A DNA stretch of 43,346 bases, taken from a phage. The notes under the pieces were generated by a model. It was not told the origin of the DNA. It saw only the letters and a list, made by a program, of their open reading frames with translations, and made no database searches. Of this stretch, positions 1,695-29,191 are shown piece after piece. Location of the stretch: assembly GCA_031490115.1 (NCBI GenBank), contig GCA_031490115.1_4355.1; one strand, written 5' to 3'. Within the stretch, counting starts at the first letter, position 1, and each line of letters opens with the position of its first letter. The translations under genes and the position numbers were made by a program.

Positions 1695-1894
1695 TTCTCC
1701 TGTTTACCAAGTCGCTTAGGTGAGCAGATAGCGCGTACCTCTGAATCGTTGGGCTTGTCACCCTGAAACAGAAAGTGCGCGTTCTCTGCGGCGCGTGCCG
1801 CTGACTGGCACGCCTCCATTGAGTAAAACGTTTCTGACGCCGCTAGTTGCATCTGGCCCGCCGACAATACCCAGATAAATAAGATGCTGGTCAT
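1691..1894 (-). CDS. hypothetical small protein with N-terminal signal-like hydrophobic segment
   Basis: 67 aa; hydrophobic N-terminus MTSILFIWVLSAGQMQLAAS; 4-nt overlap with the upstream gene. Confidence 0.4.
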   Translation of the reverse strand: MTSILFIWVLSAGQMQLAASETFYSMEACQSAARAAENAHFLFQGDKPNDSEVRAICSPKRLGKQEK

Positions 1895-2334
1895 TCGGTT
1901 ATAGCTCCACCACAGTTATCACAGACTACAGTGTTGCCGTAGTAAGTTCCGCAGTGAGCCGGAATGCACGAGCATACAGGTAGTTGAGCGTCTTCCTTTC
2001 GGCAACCGGATTGTTCTGGCGCATCCTTACATCCGAGTTCCTCAAGTGCTTTGCTAAGGTATTGGCGGCGCAGGGTGTCAGTCATTGCACTATTTGCCCG
2101 CCGGATGTACCCAATCGCGCCTTTAGGGTCCAGGTCAACGATTGAACGAAGACACATAACCTCGTTTTCAGCGCAATCCAGCGCACAGGTTAGTTCCTTA
2201 ATCTGCGCCGACGCGTTACGTAACTGATTCTTTAGTGACTGCACTTCATGCACCAGGTCTTCGCACTGGTTGCTGTTTACCTGCTGCCGTAGTCGGTCAA
2301 TCAGGTACTCGAATACTTCGTTTTTGTTACTCAT
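1891..2334 (-). CDS. hypothetical protein, N-terminal coiled coil and C-terminal Cys-rich (zinc-finger-like) tail
   Basis: 147 aa, first gene behind the promoter at 2365-2393; C-terminus CSCIPAHCG...CDNCGG. Confidence 0.45.
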   Translation of the reverse strand: MSNKNEVFEYLIDRLRQQVNSNQCEDLVHEVQSLKNQLRNASAQIKELTCALDCAENEVMCLRSIVDLDPKGAIGYIRRANSAMTDTLRRQYLSKALEELGCKDAPEQSGCRKEDAQLPVCSCIPAHCGTYYGNTVVCDNCGGAITE

Positions 2335-13768: not shown

Positions 13769-15195
13769 ACATGTCTAAATTTATCCGTCGAGAGTACCAG
13801 AAGCTCATGACCTCGTTCATGCTGCAACACCCGCGCTGTAATATCTGGTGCGGAATGGGGGGAGGTAAAACCTCCTCCACTATGTGGGTGCTCAACCGCC
13901 TGTTCCGCAACGGGCAGCTTACGGAAGAGGACCGCGTGTTAATCCTTGCCCCGTTACGTGTTGCGTCCGGTACGTGGCCCGCTGAACAAGAGAAATGGCA
14001 ATTCCCTTGTCTGCGTGTCGTAGATGCAACTGGTTCGGAGAAGCGCCGCATCGCAGCGCTGGAGTCAGATGCTAACGTGGTGTGCACTAACTACGAAGTT
14101 ATCGAGTGGCTAATTGACTACTACGGCAAAGACGACTGGCCTTTTACGGTTATCGTTGCCGATGAAAGCACGAAGCTTAAATCGTTCCGCAGCCGTTCGG
14201 GTGGTAGCAAGCGGGCAAAGGCGCTCAGCAAGGTTGCGTTCGGAAAGGTTAAGCGTTTCATCAACCTGACAGGCACACCGTCACCAAACGGCCTCAAAGA
14301 CTTGTGGGGTCAGAACTGGTTTATCGACGCTGGCGAGCGCCTCGGCTCTTCGTACACAGCATTCACCGACCGCTGGTTTAACTCGGTACAGAAAGGTAAA
14401 TCGGCCATGGCCCGCGAGTATCATGCACGACCGGGTGCGGATAATGAGATTCATCAGAAGATGAAAGACATCAGCCTGACCATAGACCCTGCCGAGTGGT
14501 TTGGTTGTGAAGCGCCTGTTATCGTACCGGTGGAAATAGACCTGCCGAAGAAAGCGCGTCAGGCGTACATAGATATGGAGGAGAAGTTATTCGCAGAACT
14601 GGAGAGCGGGGAAGTTGAAGCGGCTAACGCTGCGGCGAAGACCTCAAAGTGCTTGCAGATTGCATCTGGTGCTGTATATGTAACCGGGCCAGACGGCGAA
14701 GCAACCAAAGAATGGGAGAAAGTGCACGACACGAAACTGGATGCGCTCGAGTCGATTGTTGAGGAGTTGCAGGGTGCGCCGTTGCTGGTAGCCTATCAGT
14801 TTAAACACGAACTGGAGCGTATCCTTAAGCGATTCCCACAGGCACAGGCGTTCGCCAAAGGCGCTAGGGGGAACAAGCAGATGGAAGCGTGGAACCGTGG
14901 GGAAATCGAGATTTTATGCGTGCATCCTGCGTCAGCCGGGCATGGTTTGAATTTACAGGACGGGGGTCATCATCTGGCGTTCGTCTCGCAAGGCTGGAAC
15001 CTTGAGCACTATTTGCAGGTTGTCGAGCGCATAGGTCCAACACGCCAGAAACAGGCGGGTCACGAGCGCCCGGTGTTCCTTTATCACATCGTTGCTAAAG
15101 ACACTCTGGACGAGGTTGTCGCCGCGCGTACCGACGAGAAGAAATCGGTACAGGAAGAGTTGCTTAATTACATGAAGAGACGAGGTAAGAAATGA
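13765..15195 (+). CDS. DEAD/DEAH-box (SNF2-like) DNA helicase
   Basis: Walker A GMGGGKTS, motif II VIVADESTKL, motif III LTGTPSPN, C-terminal helicase domain. Confidence 0.8.
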   Translation: MNMSKFIRREYQKLMTSFMLQHPRCNIWCGMGGGKTSSTMWVLNRLFRNGQLTEEDRVLILAPLRVASGTWPAEQEKWQFPCLRVVDATGSEKRRIAALESDANVVCTNYEVIEWLIDYYGKDDWPFTVIVADESTKLKSFRSRSGGSKRAKALSKVAFGKVKRFINLTGTPSPNGLKDLWGQNWFIDAGERLGSSYTAFTDRWFNSVQKGKSAMAREYHARPGADNEIHQKMKDISLTIDPAEWFGCEAPVIVPVEIDLPKKARQAYIDMEEKLFAELESGEVEAANAAAKTSKCLQIASGAVYVTGPDGEATKEWEKVHDTKLDALESIVEELQGAPLLVAYQFKHELERILKRFPQAQAFAKGARGNKQMEAWNRGEIEILCVHPASAGHGLNLQDGGHHLAFVSQGWNLEHYLQVVERIGPTRQKQAGHERPVFLYHIVAKDTLDEVVAARTDEKKSVQEELLNYMKRRGKK

Positions 15196-21660: not shown

Positions 21661-23058
21661 TTAACTGTCCACATTAAAATCAATACGGGTGATGTACTTG
21701 CTTCCCCACGCAGAGTCTGCTTGAGGGATGGCGGCGTAACCGTCAACAGACGGAACGTTTACCACAGAGCCGTCTGAATATGTAATATCAATGCTTGTTG
21801 CACCGTTCATTACTACTTTTGCCGATGCCGTCGTTCGGGTTACCGGTGACGATTCGGTTACTATTGGCGACGTGGCAAAAGGTGATTTTTCTATTTGCAT
21901 CGCGCACACTAATATCCCACTAACCCCGTCACCGACAAATGAACCAACGGCGGAGTTGTTGTACACCCGTGACGCTAAAACCAGAGAAGATGCGCCGCCC
22001 TGGCGTATAGCTACCGTTTCTGTAAATCGATACCAACCATCGCCAAGCTCTGCTATATCGCTGCCGGGGGCGCCCGCGTAAATACCCCCTGTCGATAAGT
22101 TAGCAACACAATCCGCGATAAACTTAGCATCACCAGAGGCGCGAAGTCTCGCATAATTATAACCATATGCCTTAGCAACGTAACTGAGAGTGTATACATC
22201 ACCCTCCGCAAAAGCGGAAGACACCGATTGATATACGAGATGGCTGCCGTTTGTCTGGTTCGGGACTAGCGAGAACGTACCACCGTTTAGAAATCCGTCA
22301 ACTGCATCCGACACTGTTGTTCTAACTTTAGTCCACGATGCGTCAGATAATTTCGACGATTTAATCAGGATATTACTGGACGCGGATTCCGGCGGAACAC
22401 GTCCAACAGCAACCCCATCAATAAACGTAAGAGGCCATTCATTAGCGGCGGACTGCACAAGATTGCCGTTGCGGTTGATGTAATAAACCTGCGGCGCGTC
22501 ATACACAATGCGGCTATCAAGAGTCGACGCCAGAAGGTTAATCGGTGGATACCCGGCAGGCCCTTCATTGCTCCAGATGCGCGGGAACGTTGTCTCATAG
22601 TTCGCGTATATTTTCAGGAAACTGCCCAGGCAATCACCATAACAGCCATACAAATCTGGCAGATTGTTAATCAGACACTGGTTCTCGAGGTCCTGGAACG
22701 GCGATTTCTCGGCGGTTGCCGTGAAAGTAATTGTCCAGTTAATCCCGTCTTCGGTGGACTCGGCGATAGTGGACGTAATGGTTACCTGGTAATCCTCAAT
22801 ACCCATGCCGAAGTCGTGCGCCATCCAGAAACTTGACGCGCCACCATCGACTTTCTCGAGGAACGACAGAAACGCCTGCCGTCCCAGTGCCGATGTAATC
22901 AGAGTTACGCTTATCGGAAACACGTCGTAATACGTGTCGCGGCCCTGACGCACCCCGCCGCCGGCTAAATCGACACTCCAGACGTTGTTACGTCTGGTCA
23001 TTGAGTAGCCTTTTGATACCACCGGCTTAAGGCTACGTGGGAAATATAATTCGGTCAT
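21661..23058 (-). CDS. distal tail / minor tail protein
   Basis: 465 aa, immediately after the tape measure protein. Confidence 0.45.
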   Translation of the reverse strand: MTELYFPRSLKPVVSKGYSMTRRNNVWSVDLAGGGVRQGRDTYYDVFPISVTLITSALGRQAFLSFLEKVDGGASSFWMAHDFGMGIEDYQVTITSTIAESTEDGINWTITFTATAEKSPFQDLENQCLINNLPDLYGCYGDCLGSFLKIYANYETTFPRIWSNEGPAGYPPINLLASTLDSRIVYDAPQVYYINRNGNLVQSAANEWPLTFIDGVAVGRVPPESASSNILIKSSKLSDASWTKVRTTVSDAVDGFLNGGTFSLVPNQTNGSHLVYQSVSSAFAEGDVYTLSYVAKAYGYNYARLRASGDAKFIADCVANLSTGGIYAGAPGSDIAELGDGWYRFTETVAIRQGGASSLVLASRVYNNSAVGSFVGDGVSGILVCAMQIEKSPFATSPIVTESSPVTRTTASAKVVMNGATSIDITYSDGSVVNVPSVDGYAAIPQADSAWGSKYITRIDFNVDS

Positions 23059-25346
23059 TATTTAAACCCCGGCGCATTTCTTGTGGCCTTGCGGGCCTTG
23101 CTAATCTTACTGTTACTGTTCTGCAAAGAGGCAGCCACTTGCTCCTCGATGATGATACGCAAACGGCCTTCATCATCTTGCTCAGTGGATACGTTGCCGA
23201 TTTGAGAACTCGTGTTGTTTACGATAGTAACATTAGACGGTCCGGAAGAAGACCCGTTTTGCCCCATAATTTCTTTCATCTGCTGTGCGGTGCGTACACG
23301 TGACGCACCAGCGGGCATGATAACTTCTGGTTTACCGCGTTCGGCGATGGTTGAAGCCTGCCCCGCGGATAACTGTCCGCCCTGTTCACGTGCGGACCTG
23401 ATAGCGGAAATCTGCGCCATACCCGCCCCAACGGCAGCAGCGGCAGCTACAGGAGCCAGGAACGGGCCAACTACAGGGATAGCCGCTGTTGACTTATACG
23501 CCTCAATAGCCGCGGTGTACGTGGCTATAGTGGCCTGCACGATAGCGAATGCCTTGTACGCGCCAGAAGCCTCGCCCAAAGCCGAACCGATGTTTGAGGC
23601 CATGTTACCGAAGGCCGTTGCCGTTGCGTCGGCACGCTTCGTGGCGTACTGCGCGTTGATGGCATTAAGCGCAGCCTGATACCGCTTCTCACTAATCAAA
23701 CCCTGCTCGCGGTACTTATCTGCTACCGACAGTTTCTGCTGTTCCTGGATGTCGAGAAGCTCAAGCTCAGTAGCGTTCTGACCCATAATCTGAGCCATGA
23801 AGTCGTCGCCTTTCTGCTGCTTTTCCTGGGCTTCTTTCTGGCGTTTATCCAGTTCATCTTGTCGTTTTTGCCCTGCTTCGAGGACAATAGCCGTTTTTGC
23901 TTGCTCGTATTCTTTCAGTGACAGCGCGCCCTGGCTGTAGAACTCTTTTGCTTTAGCCAGTTTCTGCTGTTCCTGAGCGTCAATAGCCTTTAACTCGTCG
24001 TTGTTCTGGCGGGCCAAAGTGTCGAGGTAATCTTGCGCCTGATTCCGCAATTGTTCTGCTTTCTTGGCGGCGGCTTTTGCCGCTTTATCGTCAGCGTTTC
24101 CGGTGCCGCCAGTTCCACCCTTTTTATTAACAAGGCTGGCTAAGTCAATTTCTTGCTTCTTGCGCTCGTCGTACTGCTTGCGCTGTTCCTCAATTTCTTT
24201 CTTACGCTGCTTAGACCGGTCAGTTATGGCCTGTGATTCGGCCTCTGCGCGTTTTATGCTGGCGGCGTACGCGGCGTCGGCCTCTGCGGTCAGGTTTTTA
24301 AAAGTGAGCGCTGCCGTTTTGCTCGGGTCAAACACGTCAGCAAGGGTCTGACCTAACGCTACGGCGTAATCGTCAATGCGCTGGAACCACGCAATAACCT
24401 CGTGGAATGTCTGCTGGATGTCAGGCAACCACTCTCGGATGGCGTCAGGGATAGTTCCCAGCGAGTCTGACATGTCCGCGGATTTGTCCTCGGTGTCGTA
24501 TGCCAGGTCGTTCAAAGCGTCAGAAATAAACTTGAACGACTCATTGAACAGTGTCGCCCAATCCTGGAGCGTGGCGGCTATCTCATTAGATGCGATGGCG
24601 TCGGTAAGCGCCGTCACTGCGTCTTCTGCCATCGCGGCTTGCTCACCTACGGCATCGCCAAAACCGGATTGTGCTACCGCAAGAACAAGACCATCGAAGG
24701 AGTCGGCGAGGCTCGACAACTGACCGTCTAAGGTCTTCGAACGCGTCTCCATCGCTCCGGCGAAATCTGTGTTACCGATGTTTAACAGGTATTTCTGAAT
24801 TTCTTCGGAGTTCTTTTTAACCGTGGTGGTAACACCGCGGAACGTGAAAGAAACTGTATCCGCCTGCTGTGACGACTTGATACCGAACTCTTTTAAGCGC
24901 TCAAACTCAAAGGTACTGGCGTCCGCCACCGCCTCAATCATTTGATTAAGGTCTTTACCCATAGCCGCCGCGGTGTTGCCGTAGGAAATCAGCGCCTCTT
25001 TGCTGGGGTTCAGACCGAGGGCTACAAGTTTAGTGAAGCCCTCGACCGCCTGATTTAGACCATACGGGGTTTCTTTTGCGAACTGTTGCAGGACGCTGAA
25101 AGCCTTAGCCGCGTTCTCTGCGCTTCCAGTCATTGTGATGAGGCCGGAATTCAGCTTATCGAAGTTGCGCTGGGAGTCCACCAGTGCGCTGAACACCCGC
25201 TTAGCGGTTTCCAGACTAACAACGGCAGCAGCGGCAGCGCCAGCCGCTTTGGTAAGGCCGTTCAGTTGCGATGTGGTTTTATCGACGCCGGTCGAGGATA
25301 CTCGTACTATCAAGCTAGCGGTATCAGCCATGATTTCTACCTTCAA
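23058..25346 (-). CDS. tail tape measure protein
   Basis: 762 aa, extensive Ala/Gln/Glu/Lys-rich coiled coil, placed after the G/T chaperone pair. Confidence 0.85.
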   Translation of the reverse strand: MKVEIMADTASLIVRVSSTGVDKTTSQLNGLTKAAGAAAAAVVSLETAKRVFSALVDSQRNFDKLNSGLITMTGSAENAAKAFSVLQQFAKETPYGLNQAVEGFTKLVALGLNPSKEALISYGNTAAAMGKDLNQMIEAVADASTFEFERLKEFGIKSSQQADTVSFTFRGVTTTVKKNSEEIQKYLLNIGNTDFAGAMETRSKTLDGQLSSLADSFDGLVLAVAQSGFGDAVGEQAAMAEDAVTALTDAIASNEIAATLQDWATLFNESFKFISDALNDLAYDTEDKSADMSDSLGTIPDAIREWLPDIQQTFHEVIAWFQRIDDYAVALGQTLADVFDPSKTAALTFKNLTAEADAAYAASIKRAEAESQAITDRSKQRKKEIEEQRKQYDERKKQEIDLASLVNKKGGTGGTGNADDKAAKAAAKKAEQLRNQAQDYLDTLARQNNDELKAIDAQEQQKLAKAKEFYSQGALSLKEYEQAKTAIVLEAGQKRQDELDKRQKEAQEKQQKGDDFMAQIMGQNATELELLDIQEQQKLSVADKYREQGLISEKRYQAALNAINAQYATKRADATATAFGNMASNIGSALGEASGAYKAFAIVQATIATYTAAIEAYKSTAAIPVVGPFLAPVAAAAAVGAGMAQISAIRSAREQGGQLSAGQASTIAERGKPEVIMPAGASRVRTAQQMKEIMGQNGSSSGPSNVTIVNNTSSQIGNVSTEQDDEGRLRIIIEEQVAASLQNSNSKISKARKATRNAPGFK

Positions 25347-25719
25347 AGATTGCTTCTAAGCCCATGATAATGTCTATCTCGAACAGGCTAAGCTGTTTTT
25401 GCGTAACATCGAGATAGGCTTTCAGGTCTTGCCACGTAACGGATTCTCTTGCGAACAATACTACAGCGTCCTCGCGCACGTGTCGCGTAAACTTAATGTC
25501 ACAGTACGTCTCAAAGGTGGATATAAAAAGGGGCGGGCATTCTGGCCCACCCCGTCGCGCTGCACGTTTTTTCTTATCGATTACACCCATCGCGATAAGC
25601 GCCTGTTCGTGTCCGTCAGCTATAGAATCAAACTCTCTGATTTTATGCTTATCCACAAACTCGTAGGTGGCGAACCTGTACAGCGCGTCTACTTTTCCTG
25701 TAATGCTTTGCGCTCGGCG
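25324..25719 (-). CDS. tail assembly chaperone T segment (candidate -1 frameshift extension of G)
   Basis: Reading frame open from 25719 and in the -1 frame relative to the G ORF; overlaps the last ~10 codons of G, where the mRNA reads CAG GAA AAG TAG. Confidence 0.5.
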   Translation of the reverse strand, partial: RRAQSITGKVDALYRFATYEFVDKHKIREFDSIADGHEQALIAMGVIDKKKRAARRGGPECPPLFISTFETYCDIKFTRHVREDAVVLFARESVTWQDLKAYLDVTQKQLSLFEIDIIMGLEAIFEGRNHG

Positions 25720-26108
25720 TTATGGAACGCTGCAACCTGGGTTCCAAGCCCTTTGAACTGGTCGAGCAATTTGTTAAACGCTTCCTTAGAGAAAGGCTCG
25801 TCGTCAAAGCTCCAGCCGTTTACGACTTCTGCCGCGAGTTGTCGGTTGAGGTCTTCCGCCAGTTCATTAACCGCCAGGTTATATTCAGTATAGTCGCCGG
25901 ATTCTTTGGCGGCTTTTTCCAGTTCTTCAAAACGCGCCAGCCCGCGGCGGTACGCGATAATGAAAGCACGCCCCGCTTTAACGGCGACATCGGCATCTGG
26001 ACTTACAACATTAAGCCACTCACCGGAGTCTTCGCCGTTTGGTAGCAGAATCGGCATCTTCTTGCCTACCAGTGCTTTCTCTTCGAAATAGAAATCAGAA
26101 AGTTTCAT
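25689..26108 (-). CDS. tail assembly chaperone (gpG-like)
   Basis: 139 aa, acidic, between major tail and tape measure genes. Confidence 0.6.
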   Translation of the reverse strand: MKLSDFYFEEKALVGKKMPILLPNGEDSGEWLNVVSPDADVAVKAGRAFIIAYRRGLARFEELEKAAKESGDYTEYNLAVNELAEDLNRQLAAEVVNGWSFDDEPFSKEAFNKLLDQFKGLGTQVAAFHNAERKALQEK

Positions 26109-26217
26109 TCTTTAATCCTTTGGTTAAGAGGTTACGGGTTAACGATAAATGCGCCAGACGGGAACCACCCGCTTTTCGTGTGCGACACTAGGCGCAAAAA
26201 TTATTCTACCACAATAC

Positions 26218-26246
26218 TTGCACACCCCAATATAATAGGGTACTAT
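26218..26246 (+). promoter_or_regulatory. sigma70-like promoter (TTGCAC-N17-TACTAT), rightward
   Basis: Same element as 35065-35093; 30 nt upstream of the Imm-like gene. Confidence 0.6.
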
Positions 26247-26276
26247 TCACTTACACCAACAATGGAGGGGTTTAAA

Positions 26277-26468
26277 ATGTCCAGTTTACCAGTTTCCTTA
26301 ATTCTGTTTGCACTGCTCGCTTATTTCGCGCCTTTCCTGGTTGCGTATTTCCGTAACCATAAAGCGAAATTAGCGATATTCATGGCTAATCTGTTTCTTG
26401 GATGGGTTCTGCTGCCGTGGGTATTTATTTTAATCTGGGCTTGCAACTCGAATGTCAAAGAGAAGTGA
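26277..26468 (+). CDS. superinfection immunity (Imm)-like small membrane protein
   Basis: 63 aa from the ATG behind GGAGGGG; YFAPFLVAYFRNHKAKLAIFMANLFLGWVLLPWVFILIWA fits the Imm-type two-TM pattern (YF.P...R.H...AIF..N.FLGW). Confidence 0.6.
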   Translation: MSSLPVSLILFALLAYFAPFLVAYFRNHKAKLAIFMANLFLGWVLLPWVFILIWACNSNVKEK

Positions 26469-26505
26469 GCTAGTATAGGACAAATCCTAAGCACGAGGAA
26501 TAAAC

Positions 26506-26787
26506 ATGGCCCGGAAGAAAATAACCGACGAACAGTTGCAGGAAGAATTGAACGCCGGTATGAAGAATGTAGATATCGCCCGTAAATACGGCATCTCAGA
26601 CCGCGTAATTCGTATCCGTAAAGCGAAGCTGGCTAAGAAAGGCGTGGGCCACGGGCGCGACGTTAGCCACCTTGTGCCAGACGGCTACAAGATTAAAGGA
26701 ACGTCGTCACTTGTGGACGAGTTCGGCAACACTAAGTTGCAATGGGTTAAGACTGATACCGACGCCGAACGTCGGGTTGAATTGTAG
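26506..26787 (+). CDS. putative HTH DNA-binding protein
   Basis: 93 aa; NVDIARKYGISDRVIRIRKAKL is HTH-like. Confidence 0.45.
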   Translation: MARKKITDEQLQEELNAGMKNVDIARKYGISDRVIRIRKAKLAKKGVGHGRDVSHLVPDGYKIKGTSSLVDEFGNTKLQWVKTDTDAERRVEL

Positions 26788-26798
26788 AAAGCCGTAAC

Positions 26799-26951
26799 AT
26801 GATTGTTGAGCAACACCGCACCTTAGCGGCTAAAGACGCCTACGCCTCTCGCGGCGGATGGATGTCGGGCCGCAGTGCAAATGTAATTACTTATAGCGCC
26901 GAATATGGCGAGGTCGCACGTTTAACTATTTCACCGGAGATGCTGGGATGA
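26799..26951 (+). CDS. hypothetical small protein (50 aa)
   Basis: ORF not in the six-frame list; TGA overlaps the ATG of the phosphatase gene. Confidence 0.3.
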   Translation: MIVEQHRTLAAKDAYASRGGWMSGRSANVITYSAEYGEVARLTISPEMLG

Positions 26952-27436
26952 AAGATATTGTAATTTTCGATTTAGACGGGACATTGGCTGACGGTACCCA
27001 TCGCTTACACCTGTTACCAAAAGATAACTACGGAGAAACGTGGGCGTGGAAGCCATTTAACATGGCCTGCAAAGATGACGCTCCGATATACGACAATATC
27101 CATTTGTGTAGCGTACTGTGGCATTCCGGACTTACTATAATTATCCTTACCGGGCGAAGTGATGACGCTGAGGAGGAGACTCGCGAATGGTTACGAGAGA
27201 ATAACGTTAGGTTTGACACGCTAATCATGCGCAGCAAACACGACAACAGAAAAGACATCGTAATTAAAGAAGAGGTGTTGCGTGCTTTCGGACTGGAAAG
27301 AATCTTGTGTGCGTTCGACGACTCTCCAGCGGTAATAAAGCATTTCCGTGACCTCGGCATAACCGCACACGCAGTTACCGAATACGACTGTAACGGGAAC
27401 TCTACACACTTAAAACCACACGGGAGCGATAAATAA
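26948..27436 (+). CDS. HAD-family phosphatase resembling the 3'-phosphatase domain of T4 polynucleotide kinase
   Basis: Motif I IVIFDLDGTLADG, motif II ILTGRSD, motif III DNRKDIVIKEEV and a C-terminal FDDS acidic motif parallel the T4 Pnk phosphatase domain. Confidence 0.65.
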   Translation: MKDIVIFDLDGTLADGTHRLHLLPKDNYGETWAWKPFNMACKDDAPIYDNIHLCSVLWHSGLTIIILTGRSDDAEEETREWLRENNVRFDTLIMRSKHDNRKDIVIKEEVLRAFGLERILCAFDDSPAVIKHFRDLGITAHAVTEYDCNGNSTHLKPHGSDK

Positions 27437-27990
27437 TGGCTAAGGTAATTATTCTTAATGGCCCCGCGGGTTGCGGGAAAGACACGCTTGCTATGGCGCT
27501 GGTAGAAATGGGCTTTGCGAAAGGAACTACCAGTTTCAAGAATCCAATGTTCAATATTGCTTTGGCAGCGTTAGGCCAGGATGCTTACCACGAATTTCTC
27601 GACGGCTACGACGACCGGGCGCGGAAAGAAAAACCCGAGGGTTTTCTTAATGGGTTGTCCCGCCGCCGGTTAATGATTGCCATTTCTGAGCAATTCATTA
27701 AACCGGTATTCGGCGATGATTATTTCGGTAAGTATCTTGCTGAAAACTTGCCTGACGGCGACGAAGTTTTTGTAGTGTCCGATGGTGGATTCGCCAGTGA
27801 AGTTGCCCCTATCGTCGCCGCGGGGCATGACGTGCGAATCGTCCGCCTCCATCGTGACGGCTATACGTTCATCTGCGATAGCCGTGGCTATCTGTACGAT
27901 ATTGATGGTGTAAAAGATTACGACACCTACATCATACCGGGTGACGTTAAATCGAACGTTATAGACATTGCTTTAAAATTAGGTTTGTAA
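27436..27990 (+). CDS. P-loop kinase, dNMP-kinase-like (T4 gene 1-like)
   Basis: Walker A GPAGCGKDT (the G...GKDT variant of T4 dNMP kinase), then SRRRLMIAISEQ and VVSDGGFASE blocks. Confidence 0.55.
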   Translation: MAKVIILNGPAGCGKDTLAMALVEMGFAKGTTSFKNPMFNIALAALGQDAYHEFLDGYDDRARKEKPEGFLNGLSRRRLMIAISEQFIKPVFGDDYFGKYLAENLPDGDEVFVVSDGGFASEVAPIVAAGHDVRIVRLHRDGYTFICDSRGYLYDIDGVKDYDTYIIPGDVKSNVIDIALKLGL

Positions 27991-27994
27991 GAAA

Positions 27995-28020
27995 AAGGCC
28001 CCGAAAGGGGCCTTAGTTTT
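27995..28020. terminator. bidirectional terminator
   Basis: GGCCCC-gaaa-GGGGCC followed by TTAGTTTT; overlaps the major tail gene stop. Confidence 0.65.
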
Positions 28021-29191
28021 ATGCGTAGGTGATACGTTGAATTACGATAGACGACTGGTACTGATTGCCGGTAGCCTGGCCTTCAATGGACTGAGTGATT
28101 GACTCAGGCCCACCAATCTCTGGTGTTACTGCTGTAAGCTCTGCGCGTTTCAAACTGAAAGACATCGCCCCGTTTACCCCAGCCAGAATAGAGTTAATCT
28201 CTACCTGCTGCTCGTTGATAAACTTCTGAATCATAGCCATGTCGTACAGCTTGCCGGAGATGGAGAAGGTGTTAGCCGCGCGGCTACGTTCCACAAACGC
28301 TACGTTAGTGTTGCCGAGTTCGAACTGTGCGGACGCGCTGTTGTCGTTGGTGATGGTAAGGCTATCGCAACGCAACGGGGTAGAACCGTCGAACACGGAA
28401 ACGTCAACCGAAGAGAACGGCTCATCACCAAAAGTAACAGATGAGAAGTTGGAACCGGTCGGCCGCGTAGTGAGAATCTCCTGACTGCGACCGATGAATG
28501 GGAAGCTGCCAGTTACCATCGCGTTAACAGCCTGTTCGATGGTAAAACCAGAAACTTCCACGCCTTTGGTTAACGTGTACGCGTCAGTACCGCCGCACTG
28601 GCCTTTGTACCAGGTAAGGATAGAGAACGTCTTACACGTGTTACCAGTTTCCAGCTTGTCGCCGGTTTTAGCCTTACTAGTTTTTGTCTCGGGGGTCAGG
28701 GTGTGTTGGATGCCCGCACCAGTAACAACCGTAGCCGTCACTGCAGTAACAATAAATGGTTTTGCGTTATCGCCTGTTAAATCGGTAAATGCAATCAGGT
28801 CGCCTATCTCAACTCCGTCAGTGATAAAACTGCCGGTAGCGCGTGTGAACGTCTTGCCTGCAGGCGCGACGGTAATTGATAGCTTGGTCAGAGAACTACC
28901 GGATCGCCATGTAGAGCCTAAAGCACCCGCCAGCCAGTCGTCCTGGCTTTTCGAGCTAAGCTCAATAGCGTATTCTCCGCTAACCTGCTTGTTACCGGTG
29001 CGGATTGACGTAGTTTCACGGCTGCCGTCCAGTTCGTTGGAGGTCAGCGTGTCGCGGGTAATGGCAGGAACGCCACCTGTGTTACGCAATGGCGACCAGA
29101 CCGGGTTAGTCGGTGTTACGCCAGGGGTAGTTTCTGCCACATAGAATTGCGCAGTATTCGCGCCCTTAAAAGGAGTTGTAGCCATATTCAC
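28019..29191 (-). CDS. major tail protein
   Basis: 390 aa, directly upstream (in operon order) of the G/T chaperones and tape measure. Confidence 0.65.
   Translation of the reverse strand: MNMATTPFKGANTAQFYVAETTPGVTPTNPVWSPLRNTGGVPAITRDTLTSNELDGSRETTSIRTGNKQVSGEYAIELSSKSQDDWLAGALGSTWRSGSSLTKLSITVAPAGKTFTRATGSFITDGVEIGDLIAFTDLTGDNAKPFIVTAVTATVVTGAGIQHTLTPETKTSKAKTGDKLETGNTCKTFSILTWYKGQCGGTDAYTLTKGVEVSGFTIEQAVNAMVTGSFPFIGRSQEILTTRPTGSNFSSVTFGDEPFSSVDVSVFDGSTPLRCDSLTITNDNSASAQFELGNTNVAFVERSRAANTFSISGKLYDMAMIQKFINEQQVEINSILAGVNGAMSFSLKRAELTAVTPEIGGPESITQSIEGQATGNQYQSSIVIQRITYA

What the first reader, a model, noticed from the sequence alone, without database searches (positions are those of the whole stretch)
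25640..25730. Candidate programmed -1 frameshift joining the two tail chaperone ORFs (G and G-T)
The downstream ORF is open in the -1 frame across the last ~10 codons of the gpG-like ORF. The overlap mRNA reads CAG GAA AAG UAG, where tRNA-Lys on AAG can slip to AAA next to the stop codon. A conserved G/G-T frameshift is an established feature of tail assembly chaperones in long-tailed phages.
Basis: partly seen in the sequence, partly recalled or inferred. Interest (0 to 1): 0.45.

Follow-up and report, generated by a model that had tools for sequence, protein, structure and literature searches.

The report
Tail chaperone G/GT frameshift site
This is the expected ribosomal -1 frameshift that lets a K1G-like E. 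coli phage make a short and a long tail-assembly chaperone from one start codon; close relatives already carry the same annotation, so it is real but ordinary.

Summary
On the minus strand a 139-aa chaperone ORF (26108..25689) ends CAG GAA AAG UAG. The -1 frame is open from 25719 for 9 codons before that stop and 122 codons after it, ending on the tape-measure start. The window is a Kagunavirus, 96-98% identical to K1G-like phages. The same fusion (…LQEK|VDALY…) is already deposited for K1G, fKuEco01 and Salmonella phage Shelanagig.

I compared 95 related loci (about 88 unique sequences, down to 41% amino-acid identity). Every G gene ends NNA AAG UAR. In two loci a -1-frame stop leaves only the last two G codons for the shift. 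Codon periodicity switches to the -1 frame exactly at the junction. No start codon is conserved in the first 34 downstream codons. Synonymous sites are frozen from A_AAG through the next four codons. No RNA structure follows.

Most likely tRNA-Lys slips from AAG to AAA next to the stop, giving a 261-aa, 29.7-kDa GT protein. Nothing has been tested experimentally. The only mildly new points are that the signal is a non-canonical, stop-adjacent tetramer and that databases annotate it inconsistently.

The parts
25689..26108 (-). Gene G: tail assembly chaperone, 139 aa, 15.6 kDa, made by normal translation and terminating at UAG 25691..25689
   Evidence: ORF list and translation. Pfam Phage_TAC_4 22.4 bits against a cut-off of 21.1; all 8 diverse relatives also match, best E 2.2e-08. 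PHROG 15027 E 4.7e-69.
25692..25695 (-). Shift site A_AAG: last base of GAA plus the final sense codon AAG. tRNA-Lys re-pairs from AAG to AAA.
   Evidence: It is the only in-frame A_AAG in G. NNA AAG precedes the stop in 95 of 95 related loci. The Lys codon is AAG in 88 of 88 unique sequences, although Lys is AAG only 37% of the time elsewhere in these genes.
25692..25698 (-). Heptamer G_GAA_AAG. It resembles lambda's G_GGA_AAG but is not of the X_XXY_YYZ form.
   Evidence: Sequence. In relatives the codon before AAG is GAA, GCA, GUA, GGA or AAA, and the base before that is G, C or A. Re-pairing of the P-site tRNA is therefore not conserved.
25689..25691 (-). Zero-frame stop UAG directly 3' of the shift codon (candidate 'shifty stop'). 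It overlaps -1 frame codons GUA and GAC.
   Evidence: The stop touches AAG in every locus. It is UAG in 60, UAA in 28 and UGA in 0, although UGA would keep Val (GUG) in the -1 frame. The next base is only A or C.
25681..25688 (-). 3' context ACGCGCUG, with synonymous sites frozen in the -1 frame codons GCG (Ala3) and CUG (Leu4). Role unknown.
   Evidence: GCG in 88 of 88 and YUG in 88 of 88, against 35% GCG and 39% G-ending Leu codons elsewhere. This is the lowest third-position diversity in the whole fused gene: 0.29 bits against a mean of 1.42.
25692..25719 (-). Overlap where the -1 frame is open inside G (RRAQSITGK plus the first base of GUA)
   Evidence: Translation. In relatives this overlap shrinks to 5 codons in 12 loci and to 2 codons in L056 and L057.
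25324..25692 (-). T extension: 122 codons in the -1 frame (VDALYRF…GRNHG) plus stop UGA 25326..25324. Made only as the C-terminal part of GT (261 aa, 29.7 kDa).
   Evidence: Pfam Phage_TAC_18 67.5 bits. PHROG 15027 positions 134-259. Coding periodicity in this frame starts right after the G stop. The fusion sequence is already deposited for relatives.
25588..25590 (-). Internal AUG (Met35 of the T part), used by some annotators as a separate start
   Evidence: It is ATG in 62 of 71 unique sequences and Ile in 9. Seven invariant residues lie upstream of it.
23058..25331 (-). Tape measure protein gene. Its AUG overlaps the T stop (AUGGCUGA).
   Evidence: PHROG 1538 E 1.3e-192. Same arrangement in K1G.
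28019..29191 (-). Tail tube-like protein gene (context). It is separated from G by a block of opposite-strand genes at 26277..27990.
   Evidence: PHROG 290 E 1e-80. The homologue in Shashou is annotated as tail tube protein with a T5 pb6-like fold.

Best explanation
Genes G and T of this K1G-like siphophage are expressed as in phage lambda. Most ribosomes translate G (139 aa) and terminate at UAG. A minority shift one base backwards at the very end of G and continue in the -1 frame, producing a 261-aa GT fusion (…ALQEK-VDALYRF…) that ends where the tape measure gene starts.

The shift is a single-tRNA slip. The one E. coli tRNA-Lys (anticodon UUU) decodes AAG, lets go, and re-pairs with the overlapping AAA (A_AAG). 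This most likely happens while the slowly decoded stop codon UAG sits in the A site. The next codon read is then GUA (Val).

No RNA hairpin or pseudoknot is involved. The stop codon, and perhaps the roughly 8 bases after it, act as the only stimulators, so the yield is expected to be low (a few per cent).

By analogy with lambda, the G part would coat the tape measure protein and the T part would recruit the tail tube protein.

Shown here: the sequence anatomy, the conservation, the use of the -1 frame from the junction onward, and the absence of a start codon or structure. Inferred: the slip itself, its timing relative to the stop, its efficiency, and the roles of the proteins.
For: Anatomy.

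Identity of the proteins and neighbours.

Comparative evidence from 95 loci forming 21 clusters at 90% and 15 clusters at 70% amino-acid identity, with a minimum of 41%:
- NNA AAG UAR ends G in all 95 loci.
- The -1 frame is open 119-122 codons after the stop in every complete locus.
- -1 frame stops lie 2 codons (L056, L057) or 5 codons (12 loci) before the G stop, which places the shift in the last two codons.
- Third-position variability switches from the G frame (1.58 against 1.03 and 0.91 bits) to the -1 frame (1.36 against 0.55 and 0.68) at the junction.
- Invariant residues V1, A3, L4, F21, D22, I24 and H28 lie before any possible conserved start. Leu4 is CTG in 59 of 71 sequences and Met35 is Ile in 9 of 71.
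- Synonymous sites are frozen at AAG, GUA, GCG and YUG, while other invariant residues vary freely.

Literature:
- A_AAG is the most shift-prone tetramer in E. coli, and E. coli has a single tRNA-Lys (PMC4066793, PMC5009743).
- Curators reached the same junction for K1G, fKuEco01 and Shelanagig.
Against: - No experiment exists for this phage group in the papers I could search.
- Without a stimulator, tetramers were at background in E. coli reporters (0.147% against 0.112%, PMC4066793).
- A slow A-site codon is said to matter more for +1 than for -1 shifts (PMC5009743).
- So either the efficiency is very low, or an unidentified stimulator (perhaps the frozen 3' bases) is needed.
- One published note on a Kagunavirus with the same junction stated there is 'no canonical slippery sequence' (PMC6776780).
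- An AGGA 12 nt before a CUG/UUG codon leaves a small opening for separate initiation.
Confidence: 0.85

Rival explanations
1. Same fusion product, but made by a lambda-type tandem slip on the heptamer G_GAA_AAG. tRNA-Glu in the P site would move from GAA to GGA and tRNA-Lys in the A site from AAG to AAA, before the stop enters the A site. This is a sub-variant of the main explanation, not an alternative to frameshifting.
For: In the window, GAA to GGA keeps G:C, a G:U pair and A:U. Most relatives have G at position -7. One locus has G_GGA_AAG and two have A_AAA_AAG, which are true heptamers. Lambda uses G_GGA_AAG five codons before its stop.
Against: Twelve or more loci have C_GCA_AAG or A_GCA_AAG, and some have G_GUA_AAG, where the P-site tRNA cannot re-pair well. 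The stop is adjacent in 95 of 95 loci, which a pure tandem slip does not need.
Confidence: 0.2
2. T is made as a separate protein. This could be by re-initiation after termination at the CUG/UUG codon 5 nt past the stop (using AGGA inside CAGGAAAAG as a ribosome binding site), from GUG at 25656, or from the internal AUG at 25590.
For: Many GenBank records annotate it this way: Bas74, Golestan, Ent1, Shashou with an RBS feature, and others from the internal AUG. AGGA lies 12 nt before the CUG.
Against: - Codon 4 is CTG in 59 of 71 unique sequences and is never ATG or GTG, so it behaves as a Leu codon.
- Loci ending AAC GCA AAG or TCA GCA AAG have no AGGA.
- Val1 and Ala3 upstream of it are invariant.
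- Met35 is Ile in 9 of 71 sequences, and 34 codons upstream of it show coding periodicity and seven invariant residues.
- The GUG at 25656 is present in only 10 of 71 sequences.
Confidence: 0.08
3. The frame change is made by RNA polymerase slipping on the A run (GGAAAAG), which would yield an mRNA one base shorter.
For: None beyond the presence of four A's.
Against: Four A's is far shorter than the runs known to support transcriptional slippage (established knowledge). The invariance of G after the A's and of the adjacent stop points to decoding, not transcription.
Confidence: 0.02

Closest known systems
Escherichia phage K1G ORF22A/ORF22B (YP_009168805 / YP_009168804; GenBank ADA82267, deposited 2010). 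Likewise fKuEco01 KE1_022/023 and Salmonella phage Shelanagig gp26/gp25 ('tail assembly chaperone frameshift product').
   Same: Orthologous genes at about 96% nucleotide identity for K1G. Same CAG GAA AAG UAG junction, same K|V fusion point, same position before the tape measure gene.
   Different: The window's G has one extra Asp (139 against 138 aa), so its exact 261-aa fusion is not in the protein collection. In K1G an extra -1 frame stop shortens the overlap to 7 codons.
Phage lambda G / GT (G_GGA_AAG, -1 frameshift, G:GT about 30:1)
   Same: Two tail chaperone products from one start. The -1 shift uses tRNA-Lys on AAG near the end of G. No RNA structure is needed. The junction reads K-V in both. 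The genes sit directly before the tape measure gene.
   Different: There is no detectable sequence similarity (hhalign probability 0.5%). Lambda's site is a true heptamer five codons before the stop. Here it is a tetramer touching the stop. Here the tube gene is separated from G by opposite-strand genes.
NNA_AAG / Z_ZZN -1 frameshift sites: Bacillus subtilis cdd (A_CGA_AAG), IS1222 (G_CGA_AAG), and synthetic A_AAG constructs in E. coli
   Same: Single tRNA-Lys slip from AAG to AAA. The identity of the 5' codon modulates the level. Efficiency is low (PMC5009743, PMC4066793).
   Different: Those sites use an upstream Shine-Dalgarno-like sequence or a downstream structure as stimulator (my recollection for cdd and IS1222; shown for the synthetic constructs). 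Here neither is conserved, and the stop codon is adjacent.
Burkholderia phage KL1 gp18/gp19 (GGGAAAC immediately upstream of the TGA stop)
   Same: Predicted tail chaperone -1 frameshift with the slippery sequence touching the stop codon (PMC3483164).
   Different: KL1 has a canonical heptamer, a different protein family, and an extra gene before the tape measure gene. It is also only predicted.

Membership tests
Tail assembly chaperone pair expressed by programmed frameshift (class defined by Xu, Hendrix & Duda 2004) | Two overlapping ORFs between the tail tube gene and the tape measure gene, directly upstream of the latter | tested here: met
   G 26108..25689, T to 25324, tape measure AUG at 25331. 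Caveat: an opposite-strand block at 26277..27990 separates the tube gene from G, as in K1G.
Tail assembly chaperone pair expressed by programmed frameshift (class defined by Xu, Hendrix & Duda 2004) | Second ORF in another frame, overlapping the end of the first, with no conserved start of its own, and translated from the junction | tested here: met
   -1 frame. No conserved start in codons 1-34. Periodicity switches at the junction.
Tail assembly chaperone pair expressed by programmed frameshift (class defined by Xu, Hendrix & Duda 2004) | A slippery sequence inside the overlap that is conserved in relatives | tested here: met
   A_AAG in 95 of 95 loci. In some loci the overlap shrinks to 2-5 codons that still contain it.
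Tail assembly chaperone pair expressed by programmed frameshift (class defined by Xu, Hendrix & Duda 2004) | Both the short and the fused protein are made at a fixed low ratio, and both are needed for tail assembly | not testable with these tools
   Needs proteomics, a reporter and phage genetics. No such data were found in the searchable literature.
Pfam Phage_TAC_4 (PF08748) for G and Phage_TAC_18 (PF23812) for T | Score at or above the Pfam gathering cut-off | tested here: met
   G scores 22.4 bits against 21.1 (marginal). T scores 67.5 against 27. All 8 diverse relatives match both families, best E 2.2e-08 and 9.3e-19.
Lambda gpG / gpT sequence families | Detectable sequence similarity to lambda G-T | tested here: not met
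   hhalign of the 8-sequence profile against lambda GT gave probability 0.5%, E 0.13. The relation to lambda is by position and strategy only.
Known tail assembly chaperone fold (solved structures) | Structural similarity of G to a solved chaperone | tested here: inconclusive
   The single-sequence AlphaFold model has pLDDT 66. Foldseek against the PDB gave no match with E below 1. A profile search of PDB sequences found nothing significant.
Canonical bacterial -1 frameshift cassette (X_XXY_YYZ heptamer plus downstream structure and/or upstream SD, as in dnaX and IS911) | Heptamer of the form X_XXY_YYZ | tested here: not met
   The window has G_GAA_AAG. Relatives have C_GCA_AAG and similar. 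Only 3 of 95 loci have true heptamers.
Canonical bacterial -1 frameshift cassette (X_XXY_YYZ heptamer plus downstream structure and/or upstream SD, as in dnaX and IS911) | Conserved stimulatory RNA structure 5-9 nt downstream | tested here: not met
   Window fold z-score -0.10. Consensus fold of 17 sequences -0.59 kcal/mol, 3 pairs, no covariation. No Rfam match.
Z_ZZN tetramer -1 frameshift sites (A_AAG type) | In-frame A_AAG allowing cognate re-pairing of tRNA-Lys in the -1 frame, in a host with one tRNA-Lys | tested here: met
   Sequence. The phage carries no tRNA gene. The single tRNA-Lys of E. coli is from PMC5009743.

The most novel reading that the evidence does not exclude
The signal may not be a weak copy of lambda's heptamer but a distinct cassette: a structure-free, termination-coupled -1 frameshift signal of about 17 nt, A_AAG_UAR_(A/C)NG_CGY_UG. 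In this reading, competition between release factor and slippage at a deliberately weak stop sets the G:GT ratio, and the frozen bases after the stop act in the mRNA channel or on termination efficiency. It is conserved across the whole Guernseyvirinae subfamily. Stop-adjacent stimulation is regarded as typical of +1 rather than -1 shifts, so a conserved natural case would be a useful model.
Probability: 0.3. Interest if true: 0.45.

Novelty: already known. Interest (0 to 1): 0.2.

Why it matters
For this genome the practical result is a correct annotation: one joined CDS (26108..25692 joined to 25692..25324) plus the short G, rather than two ORFs or an ORF starting at an internal AUG.

More broadly, database records for this phage subfamily disagree. 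Three of the 16 annotated Guernseyvirinae records I examined carry a joined CDS. One paper denies a slippery sequence in a phage whose junction matches, across the slip site and stop, one that the same group annotated as frameshifted in another phage. The comparative data here settle the site.

K1G-like phages are used in K1 E. coli therapy models. The shifty tRNA is the same tRNA-Lys whose thiolation state alters lambda G/GT frameshifting and phage yield (PMC3296357 abstract). Host tRNA modification could therefore affect these phages too. That last point is inference.

Tried and rejected
- RNA stimulators. Folding 111 nt from the slip site gave z = -0.10. A consensus fold of 17 diverged sequences gave three invariant pairs and no covariation. 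Rfam found nothing in the whole window.
- Upstream SD-like stimulator. AGGA inside CAGGAAAAG is too close to the site and is absent in loci ending AAC/TCA GCA AAG. I rejected it as a conserved element.
- G at position -7 as an invariant base. It looked invariant in the first 17 loci, but C and A appeared in the larger set, so I dropped it.
- Structure. The single-sequence AlphaFold model of G was mediocre (pLDDT 66) and Foldseek against the PDB was uninformative. The PDB sequence profile search was empty.
- The search for homologous proteins with the fusion returned only 4 hits, too few for an alignment-based model.
- hhalign against lambda GT found no similarity.
- Literature. No experimental paper on this frameshift in Guernseyvirinae turned up. 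Anany et al. 2015 (PMID 25663216), cited in the Shashou record, is not held.
- Other slip sites in the overlap (CGC AAA GCA and similar). None allows re-pairing, and relatives exclude them through -1 frame stops.
- Locus L033 at first looked like an exception (G of 100 aa). It has indels inside G but an intact junction.

Full report
**What is in the sequence**

The genes around the finding lie on the minus strand. A 139-aa ORF runs from AUG 26108 to the stop UAG at 25691..25689 and ends …AFHNAERKALQEK.

In the -1 frame a UAA lies at 25722..25720. From 25719 that frame reads RRAQSITGK, then GUA (25692..25690), and stays open for 122 codons to UGA at 25326..25324. That stop overlaps the AUG of the next gene (AUGGCUGA, AUG at 25331).

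A -1 shift on the last codon gives a 261-aa protein of 29.7 kDa.

**What the genes are**

The window is a Kagunavirus (subfamily Guernseyvirinae). This 831-nt stretch is 96-98% identical to K1G-like E. coli phages.

- The upstream ORF matches Pfam Phage_TAC_4. The score is marginal in the window (22.4 against 21.1 bits), but all eight diverse relatives match, best E 2.2e-08.
- The downstream part matches Phage_TAC_18 (67.5 bits).
- PHROG 15027, 'tail assembly chaperone', has a 259-position profile. The first ORF covers positions 1-138 and the second covers 134-259, so fused proteins of this kind are already in phage databases.
- The next gene is the tape measure protein (PHROG 1538, E 1.3e-192). 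A tail terminator and a tail tube-like protein lie upstream.
- One departure from the lambda order: about 1.7 kb of opposite-strand genes (26277..27990) sits between the tube gene and G. This block is also present in K1G and Jerseyvirus.

**Prior annotation**

K1G (RefSeq and the original 2010 GenBank entry), fKuEco01 and Salmonella phage Shelanagig carry a two-piece joined CDS over exactly this span. An exact-sequence look-up confirms that the deposited proteins have the junction …LQEK|VDAL… that I derived independently. The Shelanagig announcement states that the phage contains the slippery sequence for a G/GT-type frameshift (PMC6763656).

The other 13 annotated Guernseyvirinae records I examined do not. 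They call two ORFs (with CUG, UUG or an internal AUG as the start) or miss the second ORF altogether. The announcement of the Kagunavirus Shashou says there is 'no canonical slippery sequence' (PMC6776780). Its junction, TTG CAG GAA AAG TAG, is identical to Shelanagig's.

**Is it more than chance?**

The local motif alone is not significant. AAAGTAR occurs 17 times in the window against 11.75 +/- 3.3 expected. The case rests on comparison.

I collected 17 GenBank loci and 80 IMG/VR loci; the junction could be scored in 95 sequences. They give 87-88 unique G-T sequences, forming 21 clusters at 90% and 15 clusters at 70% amino-acid identity, with a minimum pairwise identity of 41%. The findings are as follows.

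1. Ninety-four of the 95 G ORFs end NNA AAG UAR. The apparent exception, L033, has indels inside G but the same intact junction.
2. The -1 frame is open for 119-122 codons after the stop in every complete locus and ends at the tape measure start.
3. The upstream extent of the open -1 frame varies from 68 codons down to 5 (12 loci) and 2 (L056 and L057, where the -1 frame reads UAA CGC AAA GUA). The shift must therefore occur within the last two codons of G.
4. Third-position variability marks the frame in use. Before the junction it peaks at G-frame position 3 (1.58 against 1.03 and 0.91 bits). In the 34 codons after the stop it peaks at -1 frame position 3 (1.36 against 0.55 and 0.68).
5. No start-like codon is conserved in those 34 codons. 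Leu4 is CTG in 59 and TTG in 12 of 71 sequences, and never ATG or GTG. The internal Met35 that several annotators use is Ile in 9 of 71. Seven residues upstream of it are invariant.
6. Synonymous sites are frozen at the junction. The counts are AAG 88/88, GUA 88/88, GCG (Ala3) 88/88 and YUG (Leu4) 88/88. Elsewhere in the same genes these codons make up 37%, 26%, 35% and 39% of their amino acids, and other invariant residues vary freely.
7. The five-codon window EKVDA/KVDAL has the lowest third-position diversity of the entire fused gene (0.29 bits against a mean of 1.42 +/- 0.50). Only the overlap with the tape measure start comes close.
8. The window's G ORF contains exactly one in-frame A_AAG, at its last codon.

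**Mechanism**

What is conserved is A_AAG followed at once by UAG (60) or UAA (28). UGA never occurs, although it would keep Val in the -1 frame. The base after the stop is only A or C.

The codon before AAG is GAA, GCA, GUA, GGA or AAA, and the base before that is G, C or A. Re-pairing of a P-site tRNA, as in a lambda-type heptamer, is therefore not conserved. This favours a single-tRNA slip of tRNA-Lys from AAG to AAA.

Published work fits this. A_AAG is by far the most shift-prone tetramer in E. coli (5.6% with a pseudoknot), and E. coli has a single tRNA-Lys that pairs better with AAA (PMC4066793, PMC5009743). The phage encodes no tRNA.

Against a high yield, tetramers without a stimulator were at background in those reporters. 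I found no stimulator of the usual kind:
- no fold beyond shuffled controls (z = -0.10);
- no conserved helix;
- no Rfam match;
- no conserved upstream SD-like element.

The invariably adjacent stop is the obvious candidate stimulator: peptidyl-tRNA-Lys in the P site would slip while the A site waits for release factor. The review notes, however, that slow A-site codons matter more for +1 than for -1 shifts. I therefore hold the stop-coupled timing at roughly 60:40 over an A-site or tandem slip. Both give the same protein.

The frozen GCG YUG after the stop is unexplained. It could weaken termination or act in the mRNA channel. Sequence-specific 3' stimulators that act without pairing are known for Ty3.

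**Rivals**

- Separate initiation of T is contradicted by points 4 to 6 above and by loci that lack the AGGA.
- Transcriptional slippage is implausible on four A's.
- A tandem slip on G_GAA_AAG is possible in this window (GAA to GGA keeps a G:U pair) but cannot be the conserved mechanism.

**Comparison with known systems**

In function and layout this is the lambda G/GT arrangement: a -1 shift on AAG near the end of G, a K-V junction in both, and no RNA structure. Lambda's ratio is about 30:1.

It is not a sequence relative of lambda G-T (hhalign probability 0.5%), and it is not a canonical heptamer cassette. The shift site belongs to the NNA_AAG / Z_ZZN class known from B. subtilis cdd and IS1222. 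A stop-adjacent slippery site in a tail chaperone has also been predicted for Burkholderia phage KL1.

Distant homologues of G use other sites. Vibrio phage 1.117.O has U_UUU_UUC eight codons before the stop, and Serratia phage Opt-155 has a CGA_AAG.

**Verdict**

The same frameshift at the same junction has been annotated in near-identical phages since 2010, so a specialist would not be surprised. What this analysis adds:
- the shift is placed within two codons by comparative data;
- the signal is shown to be a stop-adjacent tetramer with frozen flanking bases rather than a heptamer with a structure;
- a contradiction in published annotations is resolved.

No step of the mechanism has been tested experimentally. 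Interest 0.2.

Noticed in passing
window 26506..26960 (+), junction at 26781..26797: Compared with K1G, about 0.68 kb is missing inside the metallophosphoesterase / 'DNA repair exonuclease' gene. The two flanking alignments overlap by 17 nt in the window, which suggests a deletion between short repeats. What remains is a 93-aa ORF (26506..26787) matching only positions 2-106 of the 390-position PHROG 704 profile.
   Followed up: partly
window 26277..27990 (+): A block of opposite-strand genes is inserted between the tail tube gene and chaperone gene G. It holds a superinfection immunity (Imm-like) gene, the truncated exonuclease, a polynucleotide kinase-like gene and a dNMP kinase-like gene. 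G therefore starts a new leftward unit after a 168-nt divergent intergenic region (26109..26276). K1G and Jerseyvirus have the same layout.
   Followed up: partly
window 25681..25691 (-): The bases after the shift site are frozen at synonymous positions across the subfamily (GCG and YUG in every unique sequence). The stop is never UGA and the base after it is only A or C. No RNA helix explains this.
   Followed up: partly
window 25785..25800 (-), G residues about 101-105: The window's G protein has one extra Asp (WSFDDEPF against WSFDEPF in K1G, Bas74 and fKuEco01), giving 139 rather than 138 aa. The closest record (Kagunavirus BCH953P1, 99.3% over 139 aa) appears to share it.
   Followed up: no
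L098 (Shashou) 14800..14818; L014 (PhiSTP2) 1727..1939; L033: Public records handle this region inconsistently. Shashou annotates an RBS (AGGA) and a UUG start inside or just after the slip site. PhiSTP2 has no T ORF and has a wrong-strand ORF instead. IMG genome 638275545 (L033) has several indels inside G that look like sequencing errors.
   Followed up: partly
L015 (Vibrio phage 1.117.O) about 1850..1890; L016 (Serratia phage Opt-155) about 1900..1935: Distant homologues of G (28-33% identity) also have a long -1 frame ORF before the tape measure gene, but with different candidate slip sites: U_UUU_UUC eight codons before the stop, and CGA_AAG.
   Followed up: no
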